Shown one piece after another: positions 7,631-23,071 of a stretch of DNA of 32,931 nt. The notes under the pieces were generated by a model that made no database searches, was not told the origin of the DNA, and saw only the letters and a program-made list of their open reading frames with translations. The DNA comes from an uncultured Clostridia bacterium (lineage in GTDB: Bacteria > Bacillota > Clostridia > TANB77 > CAG-508), in contig CAKPLV010000001.1 of assembly GCA_934167735.1 (NCBI GenBank), positions 1 to 32,931 of the forward strand, in the 5' to 3' direction. A program made the position numbers and the translations under genes. Position 1 is the first letter of the stretch. Each line of letters starts with the position of its first letter.

Positions 7631-8200
7631 TTAACCCCTTTCTAAATTAGGCTTTTTATTTAAAAATATTATTGTCGCTCTTCCATATTTTCTTTTATCA
7701 TTAATTTCTATATCTATATTTTTTATTTCGTTTATTATTCTTTGTTCATCATCTGTTTCTAAAATGATTTGCCCATCTGTTTTTAGAATATTATATTCTA
7801 TTATTTTATCTAATGATTTTTTTATATAATCTGTATCATATGGTGGATCCAAGTATATTATATCAAATTTTTGGTTTTTGATTTTTTCTAAACATTGTTC
7901 AAAATTCAAATTATATAAATAAACTTTATCACTCATATGTGTCTTTTCAATATTTTTCTTTATTATTTCTATAGCTTGTTTTGAATTATCACATAGAACT
8001 GCTTTTTCTGCCCCTCTGCTTAATAATTCTAAGCCTATAGCTCCACATCCTGCAAATAGGTCCAAAACTACTGTTCCTTCAATATCATTTTGGATAATAT
8101 TGAATACTGATTCTTTGACTCTGTCTAATGTAGGTCTTGTGTTAAGTGAATCTAATGTATATAATTTTGTTCCTCTTGCCCTTCCACTAATTATTCTCAT
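7631..8200 (-). CDS. rsmD: 16S rRNA (guanine966-N2)-methyltransferase RsmD
   Basis: 189 aa. MRIISGRARGTKL..TRPTLDRVKESVFNII, SAM motif LDLFAGCGAIGLELLSRGA, and DPPY catalytic tetrad. Confidence 0.9.
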   Translation of the reverse strand: MRIISGRARGTKLYTLDSLNTRPTLDRVKESVFNIIQNDIEGTVVLDLFAGCGAIGLELLSRGAEKAVLCDNSKQAIEIIKKNIEKTHMSDKVYLYNLNFEQCLEKIKNQKFDIIYLDPPYDTDYIKKSLDKIIEYNILKTDGQIILETDDEQRIINEIKNIDIEINDKRKYGRATIIFLNKKPNLERG

Positions 8201-8226
8201 TTTTTTAGCCTTTCTTGTATACTAAT

Positions 8227-8254
8227 ATTTTATTCTTTTTTCTTAGAATGTCAA
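8227..8254 (-). promoter_or_regulatory. Sigma-A-type promoter for rsmD: TTGACA-16 nt-TAAAAT
   Basis: Minus-strand TTGACA at 8254-8249 and TAAAAT at 8232-8227, about 25 nt upstream of the rsmD ATG region. Confidence 0.5.
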
Positions 8255-8269
8255 GACAATTAACAAAAA

Positions 8270-8307
8270 TGTAATATACATTTAATATTTTTGTAATATT
8301 TGTAATA
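8270..8307. promoter_or_regulatory. Phased hexamer array TGTAAT-N5-TTTAAT-N5-TGTAAT-N3-TGTAAT (WalR/OmpR-family-like direct repeats)
   Basis: Plus-strand copies start at 8270, 8281, 8292 and 8301. The array lies 15 nt upstream of the rsmD -35 and shares the 15-mer TTAATATTTTTGTAA with the array at 9454-9493. Confidence 0.4.
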
Positions 8308-8310
8308 CAA

Positions 8311-8346
8311 CACAAAAACAGCATAATCTTTATTGACTATACTGTT
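8311..8346 (-). terminator. Rho-independent terminator after divIVA
   Basis: In the minus-strand RNA, AACAGUAUA pairs with UAUGCUGUU (9 bp including one G.U), 12-nt loop, followed by a U-rich run. Confidence 0.55.
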
Positions 8347-8351
8347 TTGTT

Positions 8352-8837
8352 TTATATATCTTTATTTATATCTTTTATTAATTCTAATTGTGACATTAAT
8401 AATGATTCCATTTTTGCTTTATATATGTCAAATTGTTTTTTTAAATCATCTATTTCTTTTTCTTTCATTTTGATTTGTTGATTTAAATCATCTAATGTTC
8501 TTCTTGAATTTTCTTTTGACTTACTAAGCATTTCATCTGCTTGTCTTTTTGCTTCATTTATTATTTGCTCTGATTGTTGTTTTGCAACATTTTTTACTTC
8601 TTCTGCTGTTGTTTGAGCCATTACTAACGTATTTTGTAATGTTGTTTCTATGTTTTTGTAATGATTCAAACTATTTGTTAATTCTTCAATCTTTGCGTTT
8701 TGTGTTGAAAGATCTTTATAGTTTTTTTCATAATCAACCAATATTTGATCTAAAAACTCGTCAACTTCTTCAACATTATAACCATTCATCATTTGTTTGT
8801 TAAATTTTTTATTTTCTATATCTAATGGTGTAATCAT
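8352..8837 (-). CDS. divIVA: DivIVA-domain cell-division protein
   Basis: 161 aa. Canonical N-terminus MITPLDIENKKFNKQMMNGYNVEEVDEFLDQI followed by coiled coil. GGAGG RBS 9 nt upstream. Confidence 0.9.
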   Translation of the reverse strand: MITPLDIENKKFNKQMMNGYNVEEVDEFLDQILVDYEKNYKDLSTQNAKIEELTNSLNHYKNIETTLQNTLVMAQTTAEEVKNVAKQQSEQIINEAKRQADEMLSKSKENSRRTLDDLNQQIKMKEKEIDDLKKQFDIYKAKMESLLMSQLELIKDINKDI

Positions 8838-8871
8838 ATTGGATAGCCTCCGTTCTTTTTTATAAACGTTC

Positions 8872-9363
8872 TTAGTTTATGCTATTGTTTTTTAGCCAAG
8901 AAACAGAAAGTTTACTCTTTATTTCTTCTCTAGCCATTTCATTTGTTATTTCATAGTTTGTTGGTGCTATTAAGAAAATTGAATTTGATATTTTTTGTAT
9001 ATGTCCATCTAATGCATATACTCCACCACTAATAAAGTCAACTATTCTTCTAGCAACATCTTTGTTTACATATTCTAAATTAACTATTACAGATTTTTTC
9101 TCTTTTAATAAACTACATATTTCTTCTGATTGTTCAAATGTAGTTGGTTGTGATATAACCATTTTTATAGATTGACTTTGAGCATTATTTATAGGTACAA
9201 CTTTAGCCTTTTTTCCTCCAAAGAATTTTCTATCTTCTTCTTCATCATTTTCATATTCGGCTTTATCGTCATATTGATAAACATCCTCATCTTCCATTTC
9301 TTCTGTCTCTCCTTGGTCCATTCCGAATAGACCCCATACTTTGTCCATTATAGCTCCTGCCAT
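8872..9363 (-). CDS. sepF: Cell-division protein SepF
   Basis: 163 aa. Acidic N-terminal half, then a SepF core (MVISQPTTFEQSEEICSLLKEKKSVIVNLEYVNKDVARRIVDFISGGVYALDGHIQKISNSIFLIAP). AGGAGG RBS 7 nt upstream. Confidence 0.9.
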   Translation of the reverse strand: MAGAIMDKVWGLFGMDQGETEEMEDEDVYQYDDKAEYENDEEEDRKFFGGKKAKVVPINNAQSQSIKMVISQPTTFEQSEEICSLLKEKKSVIVNLEYVNKDVARRIVDFISGGVYALDGHIQKISNSIFLIAPTNYEITNEMAREEIKSKLSVSWLKNNSIN

Positions 9364-9411
9364 TTTTTAACCTCCTAATATCTTACACTTTAGTATTCTC
9401 GTTTCGCATAT

Positions 9412-9440
9412 AGTATCTATCTTTTTTTTATTTTTGTCAA
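9412..9440 (-). promoter_or_regulatory. Candidate sigma-A promoter for sepF-divIVA: TTGACA-17 nt-GATACT
   Basis: Minus-strand TTGACA at 9440-9435. The best -10 at 17-nt spacing is GATACT (9417-9412), a 4/6 match. Confidence 0.4.
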
Positions 9441-9453
9441 TAGTTTTTCAAAG

Positions 9454-9493
9454 TGTAATAAAAACTTAATATTTTTGTAACAGTTTTGTAACA
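9454..9493. promoter_or_regulatory. Phased hexamer array TGTAAT-N5-CTTAAT-N5-TGTAAC-N5-TGTAAC; the last pair is a perfect WalR/YycF-type box
   Basis: Plus-strand copies start at 9454, 9465, 9476 and 9487, an exact 11-bp period. The array lies 13 nt upstream of the sepF -35 and abuts the stop codon of the upstream gene. Confidence 0.45.
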
Positions 9494-10699
9494 TTATGGA
9501 TTAACCAAAATTTCATCATAATTGTTTATTTTCTTATACCCTTTTATACTTTTTTCATCATATCCTATTTCTTTTAATTCATCTGTTGAATAAGAAGATA
9601 TTATTGAAAATTTATCTGATTTTCTTTCTATTTTTACTAATATTTTGGTTTGAACCCCTGCTTTATTTCTAACAACATAATTTAATCCATTTTCTTCTAT
9701 TATAGCTTGATTAGGTACTTTTAATCCAGTTTTACTCCACCAAATAACATTAACATCTATTTTTCTGTGGTTTATAAGATTTTCATTCATTTCATTAATT
9801 TTAAATATTATTGTTCTTTTTCCACTTTGTTCATTTATATGCACAATCTTTGCATCTGTTTCCATTTTATCTGTTGTTCTTAATTTAACGGAATTTCCAA
9901 CTTTTGCTTCCATTGCTTTATCTGAATCCATTACAATTGCTATATAACATTTAAAATTATCTATTACTTTTCCAGAATCAGTACTTGTTGATACAATTTG
10001 ACCTGTTTTCAATTCTTTTTCTTCTAAAAATTCTTGTGTCATTTGGCTAAAATTATCCTCAGTAAATACATCTTCAAGTCCATCAACTCTATAGGACACA
10101 ATTCCACTCATTGGTGCTTTTATATATTCTGATCCTTTTTTCAAATTATCTTCATATTTTTTTCTTTGTTGAATTAATTTTTTAATTTCGCTATTTTCAG
10201 TTGCTTCTCCAACAAAGTTAATTTTTTTACCAATTAGTGTGTCTATACTATTTTTATATTCAGTTATTTCTTGATAATTATTTAATTGTTTTAATCCTTC
10301 TATTTTTGATTCAATTTGATTTTCAATTGCTTTTATATCTGCAGATTGATTATTTCCTGTATCTTCTTCAAGCAATTTTTGAATTTGATAATCTATATCT
10401 TTTATTTTTCCTGCTGTTTCTTTCTCACTATTACTGTAATATCTGTATATTGAATCATCTTTTGCGACTTTTTGACCTTCTGTAGCTATTTGATAAATTC
10501 CATTTGTATTATTTGTTGATTCTGGAATTTCTTCATCTCTTATAATATATCCAGCTGTTGTTTCTTCAGCTGATATAGTTCCCTGTTTTACAATATAAGT
10601 ATCTGTCGGATTAACAATCAATAAATATAATGCATATGCAATATATGATAAAATCGCAATTACCAATATTATCGCAATAGCCTTTTTGACCTTACCCAA
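9494..10699 (-). CDS. HlyD/membrane-fusion-like protein with N-terminal membrane anchor
   Basis: 401 aa. TTG start with AGGAG RBS 9 nt upstream, one N-terminal TM, a long coiled-coil hairpin region, a barrel-sandwich-like segment (APMSGIVSYRVDGLE) and a beta-rich C-terminus. Family assignment is by pattern only. Confidence 0.55.
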   Translation of the reverse strand: MGKVKKAIAIILVIAILSYIAYALYLLIVNPTDTYIVKQGTISAEETTAGYIIRDEEIPESTNNTNGIYQIATEGQKVAKDDSIYRYYSNSEKETAGKIKDIDYQIQKLLEEDTGNNQSADIKAIENQIESKIEGLKQLNNYQEITEYKNSIDTLIGKKINFVGEATENSEIKKLIQQRKKYEDNLKKGSEYIKAPMSGIVSYRVDGLEDVFTEDNFSQMTQEFLEEKELKTGQIVSTSTDSGKVIDNFKCYIAIVMDSDKAMEAKVGNSVKLRTTDKMETDAKIVHINEQSGKRTIIFKINEMNENLINHRKIDVNVIWWSKTGLKVPNQAIIEENGLNYVVRNKAGVQTKILVKIERKSDKFSIISSYSTDELKEIGYDEKSIKGYKKINNYDEILVNP

Positions 10700-19880: not shown

Positions 19881-22800
19881 TTAATCTCTAAAATATTTTT
19901 TATAACATATATCTATATCAACAAATTCGCTTGGTACTCCTGGTACAGATCCTTTTGATGTATATTGCCAAATTGTATAATCCCCTTTATAACTTGATGG
20001 ATTATTTATTGGATCATCTGTACGAGTATAATGTGCAAGCCAAACATCACAATCTTTTAATTGACTCATATCTATTTGATTTTCTAACCAATCTTTATTT
20101 GCATATAACATGGCTTTTTTACCATCTTGTCTTATTCTTTCAATAAATGCTCTTATTATTGCAGTTCTATCTGCAACTGATAATGAGTCTGCTCTACCTC
20201 CTGATTGTTCAACATCTATTGCTATTGGATATGTTAATTTATCTCCATATCCATAATCATTTACAAGTTTTAACATAAATTCTGCTTCTTCTATGGCTTC
20301 TGGAATTGTAATTGCTTGTGAATATACATATACACCAACTTCAAGTCCATTTGCTAATGCATTTTTTATATTGTTCATATATGTTCTATCTACATTCAAA
20401 CTTCCTGTTCCATAACCTCTAAATGCTGCTCTTATCATTGTAAATTGTATTCCAGATTTTTTTACTTTTCCCCAATCAATTGAGCCATTGTGTACAGATA
20501 CATCTATACCTATATCATATTTATTATATATTACAATTTTTCTGGTTTCAGAATACAATATTTCACCTTCTCTTGAAACAACTTCAAATTTTAAATCTGC
20601 TTTTCCATCTTCAAATTTTGAAATATCTATTTCTGCTTCAAATCCAGGTGTTGGATTTTTTTCTTTTCCACCAAATCCTTTTATTGCATTTATTACATCT
20701 TGTCTTTCTGTTCTAATTAAATCTAAAACATCTTGTTTTTGATTATTTATGTAAAAATTTAATGTTGCTTGCTCATCTGTTGTCATTACCCATCCTGCAA
20801 TATTTAATTTTGCCTTAGATTGTCCCATTATAAGTGGCATATCTATATATGCATCTGCATTATATCTGTTAACATTTATTATTCTTTTATTACTTGCAAT
20901 TATATCACCTGTTCTAGAAACAATATCTACTCTAATTGTATGTTCTCCATCTTTTAAATCTGTTATATCAATAGTATATGAGAACCCTGGTTTTTTATTT
21001 TGTTCTGCTGTTCCAAATCCTTTTATTGCATTTATTACATCTTGTCTTTCTGCTCTTTCTTCTGAAATTGCCTTTGTTTCATTTCCATCTACATAAATTT
21101 TTATTTGTGCTTCTGTGTCATCTGTCATAAGCCAACCATCTACATTAGTTGTTTTTCCTTCTACTTCTTGTAATTTCATTTCTGATGGTGTTTCAACACA
21201 TACATTAGCTTTATATTTTTCTATTATTATATTTCTTTGTTCTGATACAATTATATCTCCGTTTTTTGCTCTAACTTCAACTAATATTACATGTGTACCT
21301 TCACCTATTTTTATTGTATTTAATTCTGCTGAAAATCCTGGTTTTGGGTTTTGAATAGCAGTTCCACATTCTTTTATTCCATTTAAAACATCTTGTCTTT
21401 CATGTCTTTGTATCTCTACTATTTCTTGTTCTTTACCATCTATATAGAATTTTATGTCTGTTTCACTCTCTGTAGTCATTATCCATCCATCAATATTAAT
21501 TATTGGTTTTACAACTCCTAATACTTTAGGATTTTCTATATACATTTGTCCATTATATTTTTGTAAATTTATTGTACTAACTCCTGATGATAATAGCTCT
21601 CCTGTTGCTGATTCAACATTTATTTTTATTATATGTTTTCCATCATTAAATTTTGATAAATCAATATTTAATGAGAATCCTGGTGTTGGATTTTGTTCAA
21701 CATTTCCATAATCTTTTATTGCATTTAGAACATCTTGTCTTTCATGTCTTTGGATTTCTCCAACATTTTGTTCTTTACCATCAACATATATTTTTATTTT
21801 TGATTCAGTATCTGTTGTCATTACCCAACCACCTATAAATAAGTTTGTTCCTAAAATGTTATTTTCTCTAATAGTACTTGGTGTTTCAATACAACTTTGT
21901 GCAACATATTTTTTTAAGTTTATTGCTAATGTGTTTGTAACTAGTATTTCTCCATTTTTAGATTCAACATTTACTTTTATTGTATGTTTTCCATCATTTA
22001 TTTCGGCTAAATCAATTTTTAATGAAAAACCTGGCATTGGATTTTGTTCTGCTGTTCCGAATCCTTTTATTGCATTTATTACATCTTGTCTTTCAAATCT
22101 TTGTGTTTCTGCAATTTTCTGTTCTTTACCATCTATATATACTTTTAGTTCTGAATTAATATCATTAGTCATTAACCAACCATCTATTGAAATCTTATCA
22201 CCTAATATTGTATTTTCAATTCTATTATTTAAAGATTCTACATACATGTCTGCTTTATATCCTATAATATTAATTGTTCGAATATCTGTATCTAGTACAT
22301 CTCCAGCTTGAGATTTTATTTCAGTTTTTATTGTATGTTCTCCACTTTTTAAAGAACTTATATCTAATTTAGCACTATATCCTGGATTAGGATTCTGCTC
22401 AGATGAGCCGAATCCTTTTATTGCATTTATTACGTCTTGTCTTTCATATCTTTGTATTTCTTTTATTTCTTGTTCTTTATTGTCTATTGATATTTTTAAT
22501 TGTGCATTTTTATCATTTGACATATACCATCCATCTATTGTAACTTCATCTCTTGTTGTTACTATATTTTCTATGTATGTTTGTGCATTGTATATGTTTT
22601 TTATATTAATTGTTCTTATGTTATATGTTAATTTTTTTCCTGACTGTGATTCAATTTCTACTTTTAGAATATGTTGACCTAATTTTATTTTAGATGTGTC
22701 TACTTCTGCTGAAAATCCTGGCATTGGATTTTCTTCAATTGTTCCATATCCTTTTATAGCATTTATTACATCTTGTCTTTCATATCTTTCAAGATTAGAA

Positions 22801-23039
22801 ATTTCTTGTTCTATATCATCTATATATATTTTTATGTTTGCTTGAGGATCATTTGACATATACCATCCATTAATTTCTAATTTTTCTGTCGCATCTGTTA
22901 TTCCTATTTCTGATGGATTTTCTATATATGTTTGAGCTATATAATCTTCTTGTTCATTAGCAATTGCCTTTATTGATTTTATATTTATTAAAATCAGCAT
23001 TGCTAATACAACAGTAAAAAGTATTTTAATTTTTTTCAT
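19881..23039 (-). CDS. Secreted GH25 muramidase (lysozyme) preceded by seven ~115-aa tandem repeat domains
   Basis: Preferred ATG at 23039, with AGGAGG 8 nt upstream. The track's first codon is a GTG 2 nt from the RBS. Signal peptide [26 protein letters not shown]-terminal GH25 domain (19884-20516): [31 protein letters not shown]. Confidence 0.85.
20517..22940 (-). repeat. Seven in-frame tandem protein repeats (112-117 aa each) inside the GH25 gene
   Basis: Each unit reads (A)QxYIE..I.GW.M(S/T).D..IKIY(I/V)DGKEQ...(R)xERQDV(I/L)NAIKG(F/Y)G..EQNPxPGFS..(I/L)D(I/L)S....G.H.IKV.V.S..GE.L. A ~32-nt core is nearly identical at 22750, 22414, 22063, 21019 and 20677. Confidence 0.85.
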
Positions 23040-23071
23040 ATACACAACCTCCTATATTTTTATACAGTTAT

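What the first reader, a model, noticed from the sequence alone, without database searches (positions are those of the whole stretch)
9454..9493. Four 11-bp-phased TGTAAY hexamers, including a perfect WalR-type box, upstream of the sepF-divIVA promoter
The plus strand reads TGTAAT-aaaaa-CTTAAT-atttt-TGTAAC-agttt-TGTAAC, with copies starting at 9454, 9465, 9476 and 9487. The WalR/YycF consensus established in B. subtilis and S. aureus is TGT(A/T)A(A/T/C)-N5-TGT(A/T)A(A/T/C). Three of the four hexamers fit it, and the last pair is a perfect box. The array sits 13 nt upstream of a TTGACA -35, roughly -50 to -95. WalR controls wall hydrolases and some division genes in other Firmicutes, so direct control of sepF/divIVA would be a plausible extension that I do not recall being reported. 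Read on the other strand, the units are (G/A)TTACA, close to B. subtilis PhoP boxes TT(A/T/C)ACA, so another OmpR-family regulator is an alternative. By rough estimate, one isolated box is expected by chance in an AT-rich window of this size. The signal therefore rests on the 4-copy helical phasing and its recurrence at 8270-8307.
Basis: partly seen in the sequence, partly recalled or inferred. Interest (0 to 1): 0.62.

Follow-up and report, generated by a model that had tools for sequence, protein, structure and literature searches.

The report
Phased WalR-type boxes upstream of sepF
A row of four evenly spaced short DNA words just upstream of the promoter of two cell-division genes (sepF, divIVA) is a real, strongly conserved regulatory site in a group of uncultured gut Clostridia. 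It most likely docks a WalR-like response regulator, which would tie cell division to cell-envelope signalling.

Summary
On the + strand, 9454-9492 reads TGTAAT-N5-CTTAAT-N5-TGTAAC-N5-TGTAAC. It lies 13 nt upstream of a TTGACA-17-GATACT promoter for the minus-strand sepF-divIVA operon, and a sister array sits upstream of rsmD.

It is far beyond chance. In this genome's intergenic DNA, TGTAAY pairs 11 bp apart occur 24 times against 0.25 in shuffles, and triples 7 times against 0. Coding DNA is nine times larger and holds only 2 pairs.

The four-slot layout, including the non-canonical third slot, is kept upstream of sepF in 76 related sequences and in three families of the order. Similar arrays are conserved upstream of ftsA, rsmD and dnaA.

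The genome encodes one response regulator whose DNA-binding domain is WalR/VicR-type, with an almost identical recognition helix. The units match the WalR/VicR consensus TGTWAHA.

Best reading (about 0.55): tandem dimers of this WalR-like regulator bind the array and activate the sepF promoter.

Weak points are these. There are no binding data. No boxes precede the two recognisable peptidoglycan hydrolase genes. The target set is mixed, and the cognate kinase is ambiguous.

Novelty: a new member of a known kind, with a parallel in mycobacterial MtrA, which targets sepF, wag31 and dnaA. Interest is moderate.

The parts
9487..9492 (-). Slot 1, distal. GTTACA in gene direction (TGTAAC on +), starting 1 nt after the stop codon of the upstream HlyD_2 gene.
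   Evidence: RTTACA is in register in 66/76 related sequences.
9476..9481 (-). Slot 2. GTTACA in gene direction. With slot 1 it forms a perfect TGTWAH-N5-TGTWAH box that reads as such on both strands.
   Evidence: RTTACA in 66/76.
9465..9470 (-). Slot 3, a non-canonical half-site. ATTAAG in gene direction (CTTAAT on +).
   Evidence: RTTAAR in 67/76 and never RTTACA. The same deviation is kept in families f4 and f5.
9454..9459 (-). Slot 4, promoter-proximal. ATTACA in gene direction, 13 nt upstream of the -35.
   Evidence: ATTACA in 47/76 in register; most of the rest keep xxAACA.
9435..9440 (-). -35 hexamer TTGACA of the sepF-divIVA promoter.
   Evidence: TTGAC is invariant and the sixth base is A in 75 of the 76 aligned sequences.
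9412..9417 (-). -10 hexamer GATACT, with a 17-nt spacer.
   Evidence: Invariant in 76/76.
9371..9376 (-). Shine-Dalgarno AGGAGG of sepF.
   Evidence: read directly.
8872..9363 (-). sepF (163 aa).
   Evidence: Pfam SepF, E 1.4e-26.
8352..8837 (-). divIVA (161 aa), 34 nt after sepF and probably co-transcribed with it.
   Evidence: Pfam DivIVA, E 4.3e-35.
8315..8348 (-). Intrinsic-terminator-like hairpin plus T-run that ends the sepF-divIVA unit.
8270..8306 (-). Sister array upstream of rsmD. In gene direction it reads ATTACA-3nt-ATTACA-N5-ATTAAA-N5-ATTACA, and it lies 15 nt upstream of TTGACA (8254-8249)-16-TAAAAT (8232-8227).
   Evidence: The layout is conserved in related loci.
7631..8200 (-). 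rsmD-type methyltransferase gene served by the second array.
   Evidence: Pfam Cons_hypoth95, E 2.4e-53.

Best explanation
The array is a cis-regulatory site made of four half-sites on one face of the helix (11-bp period). It is most likely bound by two head-to-tail dimers of the genome's WalR (YycF/VicR)-type OmpR-family response regulator, encoded at contig C3:17098-17847.

The half-sites are centred at roughly -52, -63, -74 and -85 relative to the inferred start site. They sit upstream of a promoter with a perfect -35 but a weak -10 (GATACT). The bound regulator would therefore act as a class I activator of sepF-divIVA transcription and couple late division and septum proteins to envelope signalling.

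The same regulator would act through similar arrays at ftsA, rsmD, dnaA and some 30 other promoters.

Shown: the element, its non-random phasing, its conservation, its position relative to the promoter, and the presence of a WalR-type DNA-binding domain.

Inferred: which protein binds, that binding activates, and the physiological signal.
For: 1. Phasing is specific to this hexamer and confined to intergenic DNA. There are 24 pairs at 11 bp against 0.25 in shuffles, 7 triples against 0, and 2 pairs in ninefold more coding DNA.
2. Every one of the 25 genomes of the genus carries 1-12 exact three-copy arrays, and the reversed-pattern control gives 0 in all 25 (1 hit in one genome of another family, G027). 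Across the class only 21 of 151 genomes carry any, mostly 1-3 each.
3. Phylogenetic footprint at sepF. In 76 sequences the C of TTACA is kept in 67/76 at each of slots 1, 2 and 4, in DNA that is about 76% A+T, while the gene end upstream has diverged. The same four-slot layout is present in families f4 and f5, where SepF identity is 58-65%.
4. Arrays upstream of ftsA are conserved in families f1, f3, f4 and f5, in either orientation. A hexamer pair abuts the DnaA boxes of dnaA across the genus.
5. Motif fit. TGTAAY is a subset of TGTWAH-N5-TGTWAH. Position 7 is A in 39/51 units and in all four units here, matching the VicR consensus TGTWAHA-N4-TGTWAHA. VicR and WalR sites work on either strand (PMC4168254, PMC10746227).
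6. The regulator. Among the 5 OmpR-family regulators found, only one is WalR-like.
  - It scores 313 bits on NCBIfam YycF, against 247 for the next model, MtrA.
  - Its DNA-binding domain hits VicR, YycF and WalR structures best (E 3e-33 to 1.5e-31), against RegX3 and MtrA at about 1e-24 and 1e-22.
  - Its recognition helix is RTVDVTVRRIRERIE, against RTVDVTVRRLREKIE in YycF. The helix is conserved across the order.
7. The target set has precedents. [quoted passage not shown] S. aureus WalR binds the dnaA promoter (PMC10746227). M. tuberculosis MtrA targets sepF and wag31 (divIVA) (PMC6265350).
Against: - There are no binding or expression data. RNA runs were not available for this window.
- The regulator scores below the NCBIfam YycF cut-off (313 against 340), and its gene is not next to a kinase.
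- The best candidate kinase (C34:1834-3012) ties between the WalK and PnpS (PhoR-like) models.
- The two recognisable peptidoglycan hydrolase genes have no WalR-type box within 300 nt, so the classic WalR hallmark is missing.
- Targets are mixed and include a Mob_Pre contig and several pilin-leader surface proteins.
- Family f2 keeps the same recognition helix but has no three-copy arrays and none at ftsA or sepF.
- Slot 3 is conserved as a non-consensus word, which simple WalR binding does not explain.
- The genome is only 66% complete, so other regulators may be unseen.
Confidence: 0.55

Rival explanations
1. The array is bound by a different OmpR/PhoB-family response regulator. Candidates are the PhoB-like regulator with its kinase at C27:4069-6301, or a PhoP-type regulator missing from this incomplete assembly. 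It would bind tandem dimers in the way B. subtilis PhoP binds four or more 11-bp-phased TT(A/T/C)ACA boxes.
For: - Direct repeats with an 11-bp period and 3-4 units are the PhoP-type layout (established knowledge).
- At least 5 OmpR-family regulators exist in 66% of the genome.
- The unlinked PAS kinase ties with the PhoR-like PnpS model.
- WalR and PhoP consensus sequences are close.
Against: - The hexamer is RTTACA, not TTHACA. TTTACA shows no peak at 11 bp (2 pairs), and TGTAAR shows none either (5 pairs).
- The recognition helices of the other four regulators differ strongly from WalR and from one another.
- Only the WalR-like regulator matches a protein family whose known site equals the observed word.
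- The one PBP_like_2 (PstS-like) gene found has no array. That test is weak.
Confidence: 0.17
2. The array is not a response-regulator site. It would be either an architectural or UP-like element, where phased A-tracts bend DNA and help RNA polymerase, or the site of an unrelated and so far unknown DNA-binding protein of this lineage.
For: - The spacers are A/T runs (AAAAT, TTTTT) repeated every 11 bp, so intrinsic curvature is likely.
- Phased A-tracts upstream of -35 stimulate some clostridial promoters (established knowledge).
- Targets are mixed and include mobile-element genes, as expected of a general promoter feature.
- Family f2 has the WalR-type helix but no arrays.
- The conserved odd slot 3 is unexplained.
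Against: - The most conserved positions are the C (the G on the other strand) and the flanking bases of the hexamer, not the A-tracts. Information content is 2.5 bits at C against 0.1-0.7 in most spacer columns.
- The A/T-only control hexamer TATAAY shows no 11-bp peak.
- Only about 36 of 785 intergenic regions carry a site, so this is a regulon, not a general promoter feature.
Confidence: 0.2
3. The array is a chance arrangement in AT-rich spacer DNA with no function.
For: One general WalR-consensus box per window is expected by chance (0.93).
Against: - The genome-wide excess is about 100-fold, and shuffles never exceed 2 pairs.
- The array is conserved in 76 sequences and three families.
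- The reversed-pattern control gives 1 hit (in G027) across the 41 genomes and 0 in the 151 genomes.
Confidence: 0.02

Closest known systems
WalR (YycF/VicR) binding sites of Bacillota: TGTWAH-N5-TGTWAH; in S. mutans TGTWAHA-N4-TGTWAHA
   Same: - Same hexamer, same 5-nt spacer (11-bp period) and same A at position 7.
- Works on either strand.
- Sites upstream of -35 are associated with activation.
- ftsAZ (B. subtilis) and dnaA (S. aureus) are known targets.
- A regulator with a near-identical recognition helix is present.
   Different: - Here there are 3-4 phased half-sites rather than one pair, with a conserved non-canonical third slot.
- Only TGTAAY is used, not TGTTAH.
- sepF/divIVA is not a reported WalR target. 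It is not mentioned in the C. difficile or S. aureus regulon papers read here (PMC9210968, PMC10746227).
- No boxes were found at the two peptidoglycan hydrolase genes tested.
- The regulator gene is unlinked from any kinase.
B. subtilis PhoP Pho-box arrays: TT(A/T/C)ACA repeated four or more times with an 11-bp period
   Same: - Multi-unit arrays (3-4 or more) of direct repeats at 11 bp.
- Located upstream of, or replacing, the -35.
- Bound by tandem dimers of an OmpR-family regulator.
   Different: - The first base of the unit is A or G here, not T. TTTACA shows no phasing in this genome.
- The targets are not phosphate genes.
- No PhoP-type helix was seen among the regulators found.
MtrA of Actinobacteria, the essential WalR-like regulator (M. 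tuberculosis, PMC6265350)
   Same: - The regulon includes sepF, wag31 (divIVA) and dnaA.
- Its site is a direct repeat with a GT-A-C core.
- The regulator belongs to the same clade: MtrA is the second-best NCBIfam model, at 247 bits.
   Different: - Different phylum.
- The MtrA motif is G/C-rich and consists of 9-nt repeats.
- MtrA is encoded next to its kinase MtrB.
RpaB HLR1 motif of cyanobacteria: (G/T)TTACA(T/A)(T/A) direct repeats (from memory)
   Same: - The same xTTACA core followed by A/T.
- Same regulator clade: RpaB is the third-best NCBIfam model, at 235 bits.
   Different: - 10-bp period with two units.
- Photosynthesis and high-light genes.
- A different phylum.

Membership tests
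WalR/YycF/VicR binding site | Two direct-repeat hexamers TGTWAH separated by 5 nt | tested here: met
   9476-9492 is a perfect box, and it also reads as one on the other strand. Slot 4 fits the consensus and slot 3 does not.
WalR/YycF/VicR binding site | Adenine immediately after each hexamer (VicR consensus TGTWAHA, PMC4168254) | tested here: met
   All four units here are followed by A. Genome-wide the figure is 39/51 units, against about 38% A in the background.
WalR/YycF/VicR binding site | A WalR orthologue with the conserved recognition helix is encoded in the genome | tested here: met
   - C3:17098-17847 scores 313 bits on NF040534, which is the best model but below the 340 cut-off.
- Its DNA-binding domain hits 2hwv, 2d1v and 2zxj best.
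- Its helix is RTVDVTVRRIRERIE.
- Orthologues are present across the order.
WalR/YycF/VicR binding site | The site is physically bound by WalR | not testable with these tools
   This needs EMSA, footprinting or DAP-seq.
WalR/YycF/VicR binding site | The regulon is centred on peptidoglycan hydrolase (autolysin) genes | tested here: not met
   - The SH3b-NlpC/P60 gene (C19:4038-5363) and the GH25 muramidase gene (window 19881-23045) have no box with 1 mismatch or fewer within 300 nt.
- None of the roughly 40 array-facing genes examined is a recognisable hydrolase. Twenty were scanned with Pfam and the rest were judged by eye only.
- The genome is 66% complete, and a full family scan was cut short.
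WalR/YycF/VicR binding site | walR is co-operonic with walK (a PAS-containing kinase) | tested here: not met
   - The regulator lies between a YnbB-like gene (named by eye, no family scan) and ispH.
- The best WalK-like kinase is elsewhere, at C34:1834-3012 after ftsW-murG (named by eye), about 10 kb from the regulator in relative G019.
- That kinase ties with the PnpS model.
B. subtilis PhoP Pho-box array | Units are TT(A/T/C)ACA | tested here: not met
   The units are (A/G)TTACA. TTTACA gives 2 pairs at 11 bp, and TTHACA gives 14, which is no peak above its neighbours.
B. subtilis PhoP Pho-box array | Four or more units with an 11-bp period near -35 | tested here: met
   Four slots at 11 bp lie 13 nt from the -35.
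B. subtilis PhoP Pho-box array | Arrays precede phosphate-starvation genes (pst, pho) | tested here: inconclusive
   Only one PBP_like_2 gene was found (C17). It has no array and no adjacent pstCAB.
Phased A-tract / UP-like curved DNA | The signal resides in A/T tracts, not in specific G/C positions | tested here: not met
   The conserved C carries the highest information content (2.5 bits) and spacers vary. The A/T-only hexamer shows no 11-bp peak.

The most novel reading that the evidence does not exclude
In this order of small-genome gut Clostridia, the WalR-type regulator has been re-purposed from an autolysin regulator into a cell-cycle regulator in the manner of MtrA or CtrA.

It would sit on multi-dimer arrays (strong-strong-weak-strong) at dnaA, ftsA and sepF-divIVA, as well as at type IV pilin-like and surface-protein genes. 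Its gene is separated from its kinase.

The conserved weak third slot would set a cooperative threshold, so that division genes fire only at high regulator phosphorylation.
Probability: 0.25. Interest if true: 0.65.

Novelty: new member of a known kind. Interest (0 to 1): 0.45.

Why it matters
WalRK is the essential envelope two-component system of Bacillota, and why it is essential is still debated. A direct, deeply conserved WalR-type site at sepF-divIVA would add late-division genes to its direct regulon. Similar sites at ftsA and dnaA point the same way. This would mirror what MtrA does in Actinobacteria and suggest an ancient link between envelope sensing, replication and septation.

The finding also gives a concrete, testable regulon (about 36 intergenic sites) for a lineage known only from metagenomes. 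It also provides a natural series of 2-, 3- and 4-unit arrays for studying cooperative binding by OmpR-family regulators.

Tried and rejected
- I guessed by eye that the two giant surface proteins on C7, which have arrays upstream, carry NlpC/P60 domains. Pfam finds only a SpaA-type fold in one and nothing in the other, so I dropped the guess.
- I suspected that the array at C36:3237-3264 preceded an rRNA operon, because the next 1.7 kb had no ORF in my crude gene map. Rfam finds nothing there, and a 574-aa ORF fills the gap.
- A phylogenetic profile of the WalR-like regulator against array presence does not discriminate. The regulator and its helix are present in all families, including f2, which lacks arrays.
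- Pho-regulon test. The only PstS-like gene has no array, but it is not in a clear pst operon, so the test is inconclusive.
- There is no array upstream of the regulator's own gene, so no sign of autoregulation.
- Rfam on 7900-9800 gives no RNA family, so an RNA-level reading is not supported.
- I considered Spo0A (TGTCGAA), cre/CcpA (an inverted repeat with a CG centre), Rex, CtsR, MraZ and LytTR sites from memory. I rejected all of them on word, symmetry or period.
The planned genome-wide scans for NlpC/P60 and amidase families were replaced by a regex plus Pfam check.

Full report
**What is there**

The window is contig C1 of a 1.27-Mb, 277-contig, 26.5% G+C assembly that is 66% complete. 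Related records are gut metagenome-assembled genomes titled "uncultured Clostridium sp." or "Clostridia bacterium".

All genes around the finding lie on the minus strand: mutL, a 152-aa ORF, miaA, an HlyD_2-family gene (9494-10699), sepF (8872-9363), divIVA (8352-8837), an rsmD-type methyltransferase (7631-8200), a 167-aa ORF and ftsK.

The + strand reads TGTAAT (9454), CTTAAT (9465), TGTAAC (9476) and TGTAAC (9487), exactly as reported. In gene direction this is GTTACA-N5-GTTACA-N5-ATTAAG-N5-ATTACA, followed by 13 nt and then TTGACA-17 nt-GATACT (9440-9412). AGGAGG and the sepF ATG follow. The array begins one base after the stop codon of the upstream gene.

A second array (8270-8306) lies between the divIVA terminator (8315-8348) and a TTGACA-16-TAAAAT promoter for rsmD. 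No Rfam family matches the region.

**Is it more than chance?**

In the window alone the evidence is only suggestive:
- The strict pair occurs once against 0.08 expected.
- One general WalR-consensus box per window is expected by chance (0.93).

The genome settles the question.
- Distances between same-strand TGTAAY hexamers peak sharply at 11 bp (30 pairs) and 22 bp (22 pairs), against 1-10 at neighbouring distances.
- Seven of the eight non-overlapping control hexamers give only 1-5 pairs at 11 bp. The all-A/T control TATAAY gives 18, its flat background. The broader TTHACA and TGTWAH classes overlap the motif, give 14 and 63, and also show no peak. All controls show only codon periodicity.
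- I made a crude ORF map, which% of the genome coding. With it, intergenic DNA (126 kb) holds 24 pairs at 11 bp, against 0.25 +/- 0.49 in 200 dinucleotide-preserving shuffles (maximum 2).
- Intergenic DNA holds 7 in-phase triples against 0 in shuffles. The 1.14 Mb of coding DNA holds 2 pairs.
- Allowing one mismatch gives 60 intergenic sites in 36 clusters, against 72 sites in ninefold more coding DNA.
- An average profile around all 289 intergenic hexamers shows G enrichment recurring every 11 bp.

**Conservation**

The exact three-copy pattern occurs 1-12 times in every one of the 25 genomes of the genus, and the reversed (not complemented) control occurs 0 times in all 25 (once in one genome of another family, G027). 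It also occurs in sister families f4 and f5, but not in f2. Among 151 genomes sampled across the class, only 21 have any, mostly 1-3 each. Multi-copy arrays are therefore a lineage-enriched feature.

I anchored the regions upstream of sepF on the -35 in 76 sequences, with SepF identity of 71-88%. The consensus is aATTACAAaAaTaTTACAaAAATATTAAAatt.tATtACAtTt.aAAAAAcTA-TTGACA-17-GATACT.
- The C of TTACA is kept in 67/76 at each of slots 1, 2 and 4.
- Slot 3 is RTTAAR in 67/76 and never RTTACA.
- TTGAC and GATACT are invariant, and the sixth base of the -35 is A in 75 of 76.
- The end of the upstream gene has diverged or has been replaced in some loci.

The same four-slot layout, including the odd third slot, stands upstream of sepF in families f5 (4 of 4 genomes) and f4 (2 of 4), at 58-65% SepF identity. 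It is absent from f2 and from most of f3.

Other promoters show conserved arrays too:
- The rsmD array is likewise conserved.
- ftsA carries 3-4 phased hexamers next to its -35 across the genus. It also does so in f3 (G026), in f4 and f5 genomes with the opposite orientation, but not in f2.
- dnaA has a WTTACA-N5-ATTACA pair abutting its DnaA boxes throughout the genus, and often a second TGTAAT pair further upstream.

**What binds it?**

Direct repeats with a one-helical-turn period are the signature of OmpR/PhoB winged-helix response regulators. The genome shows five such regulators. One, at C3:17098-17847, is WalR-like.
- NCBIfam YycF scores 313 bits, below the 340 cut-off. The next models are MtrA (247) and RpaB (235).
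- Its DNA-binding domain matches the solved VicR, YycF and WalR domains best (2hwv, 2d1v, 2zxj; E 3e-33 to 1.5e-31), ahead of RegX3 and MtrA (about 1e-24 and 1e-22).
- Its recognition helix and wing are almost identical to those of WalR. The helix is RTVDVTVRRIRERIE against RTVDVTVRRLREKIE, and the wing is KRGVGYY against RRGVGYY.
- Orthologues at 56-88% identity, with the same helix, occur throughout the order.

The observed unit fits the known sites.
- TGTAAYA is a subset of the WalR consensus TGTWAH-N5-TGTWAH and of the S. mutans VicR consensus TGTWAHA-N4-TGTWAHA. A at position 7 is found in 39/51 units genome-wide and in 4/4 here (PMC4168254).
- VicR and S. aureus WalR sites function on either strand, and position relative to the promoter sets the sign of regulation (PMC4168254, PMC10746227). 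This matches the mixed orientations seen here.

The B. subtilis PhoP word TT(A/T/C)ACA fits less well. The first base here is A or G, and TTTACA shows no 11-bp phasing.

**Targets and precedents**

Genes facing arrays include the following.
- Confirmed by Pfam: sepF-divIVA, rsmD, veg, a small RelA/SpoT-domain synthetase, a beta-CASP RNase, an M50 site-2 protease, spoVAC, a VanW protein, and a Mob_Pre gene on a probable mobile element.
- Named by eye only: ftsA, dnaA, polC, nrdD and an exonuclease III.
- Several surface proteins with a prepilin-type leader. Pfam finds RCC1 or LRR repeats in two of them. The leader itself was recognised by eye, without Pfam support.
- Two giant SpaA-fold proteins.

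There are precedents for the division and replication part.
- S. aureus WalR binds several motifs in the dnaA promoter (PMC10746227).
- M. tuberculosis MtrA, the actinobacterial counterpart, targets sepF and wag31 (divIVA) (PMC6265350).
- Neither the C. difficile nor the S. aureus WalR regulon paper mentions sepF or divIVA. In Bacillota this would be a new direct target.

**What does not fit**

- The classic WalR hallmark is missing. The SH3b-NlpC/P60 endopeptidase gene (C19:4038-5363) and the GH25 muramidase gene (19881-23045) have no WalR-type box, even with one mismatch, within 300 nt.
- The regulator gene lies between a YnbB-like gene (named by eye, no family scan) and ispH, not next to a kinase.
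- The best WalK-like kinase has one transmembrane segment plus PAS, DHp and CA domains. It sits after ftsW-murG (named by eye) at C34:1834-3012 and scores equally on the WalK and PhoR-like PnpS models.
- Family f2 keeps the helix but lacks arrays.
- The conserved non-consensus slot 3 is unexplained (note 3).
- There are no binding or transcript data.

**Mechanism proposed**

Two head-to-tail dimers of the phosphorylated WalR-like regulator occupy slots 1-2 (strong) and slots 3-4 (weak plus strong) on one face of the DNA. These are centred near -85, -74, -63 and -52. From there the regulator contacts RNA polymerase and boosts a promoter whose -10 (GATACT) is sub-optimal.

- Shown: the anatomy, phasing, conservation and regulator inventory.
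- Inferred: the identity of the binder (about 0.55), the sign of regulation (activation, from the upstream position), cooperativity through the weak slot, and the physiological input.

Rivals:
- Another OmpR-family regulator (0.17).
- An architectural element or an unknown protein (0.20). This is weakened because the conserved information sits in the C/G position of the hexamer rather than in the A-tracts.
- Chance (0.02).

**Verdict**

This is a real, conserved, WalR-type box array at a new target gene pair, and part of a lineage-expanded family of multi-hexamer arrays. It is a new member of a known kind and of moderate interest, and it can be tested directly by EMSA, footprinting or DAP-seq.

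Noticed in passing
window 9476-9493: TGTAACA is nearly its own reverse complement (TGTTACA). The slot 1-2 pair therefore satisfies the WalR consensus on both strands, offset by 1 nt. Orientation calls for C-type hexamers are ambiguous.
   Followed up: partly
genome contig C3:17098-17847 and C34:1834-3012: The WalR-like regulator gene is unlinked from any kinase. It follows spoIIGA/sigE/sigG-type genes and a YnbB-like gene, and it precedes ispH. A short PAS kinase of the WalK/PnpS group sits directly after ftsW and murG. In relative G019 the two genes are about 10 kb apart on one contig.
   Followed up: partly
genome contigs C46:5219-5246, C190:487-514, C176:325-341, C181:2188-2204, C72:4666-4682, C36:3237-3264: Five array-facing genes encode proteins with the same prepilin-type leader (GITLIALVVTIVVLLILAG), fused to RCC1, LRR or other domains. 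A sixth array precedes a 574-aa ORF that looks like a PilM/PilN-type assembly protein by eye. Pilus or pseudopilus genes may be a major class of targets.
   Followed up: partly
genome contig C40:3441-6702: Three one-mismatch sites lie on a contig that carries a Mob_Pre (plasmid recombination enzyme) gene. A mobile element seems to use the same boxes.
   Followed up: no
window 9412-9419: The -10 region of the sepF promoter, GATACT, is invariant in 76/76 related sequences. The two bases before it, TA, are kept in 72 and 70 of 76. This is more conserved than a plain weak sigma-A -10 would need, which hints at an extra constraint.
   Followed up: no
genome contig C55:5662-5678 and relatives L152-L172: In the dnaA leader the hexamer pair directly abuts a cluster of DnaA boxes (ATTACA-aag-TTATCCACA). 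Binding of the regulator and of DnaA could therefore interfere with each other.
   Followed up: partly
relatives of family f2 (G025, G029, G033, G037): This family keeps the WalR-type recognition helix but has no three-copy arrays genome-wide and none at ftsA or sepF. There ftsA sits behind another gene with a different promoter.
   Followed up: partly
genome contigs C26:5220-5258, C54:1330-1357, C94:3686-3720: Some arrays start or end with an inverted pair, either TGTAAT·ATTACA with 0 nt between or ATTACA-aa-TGTAAT. These may be junctions between oppositely oriented dimers.
   Followed up: no
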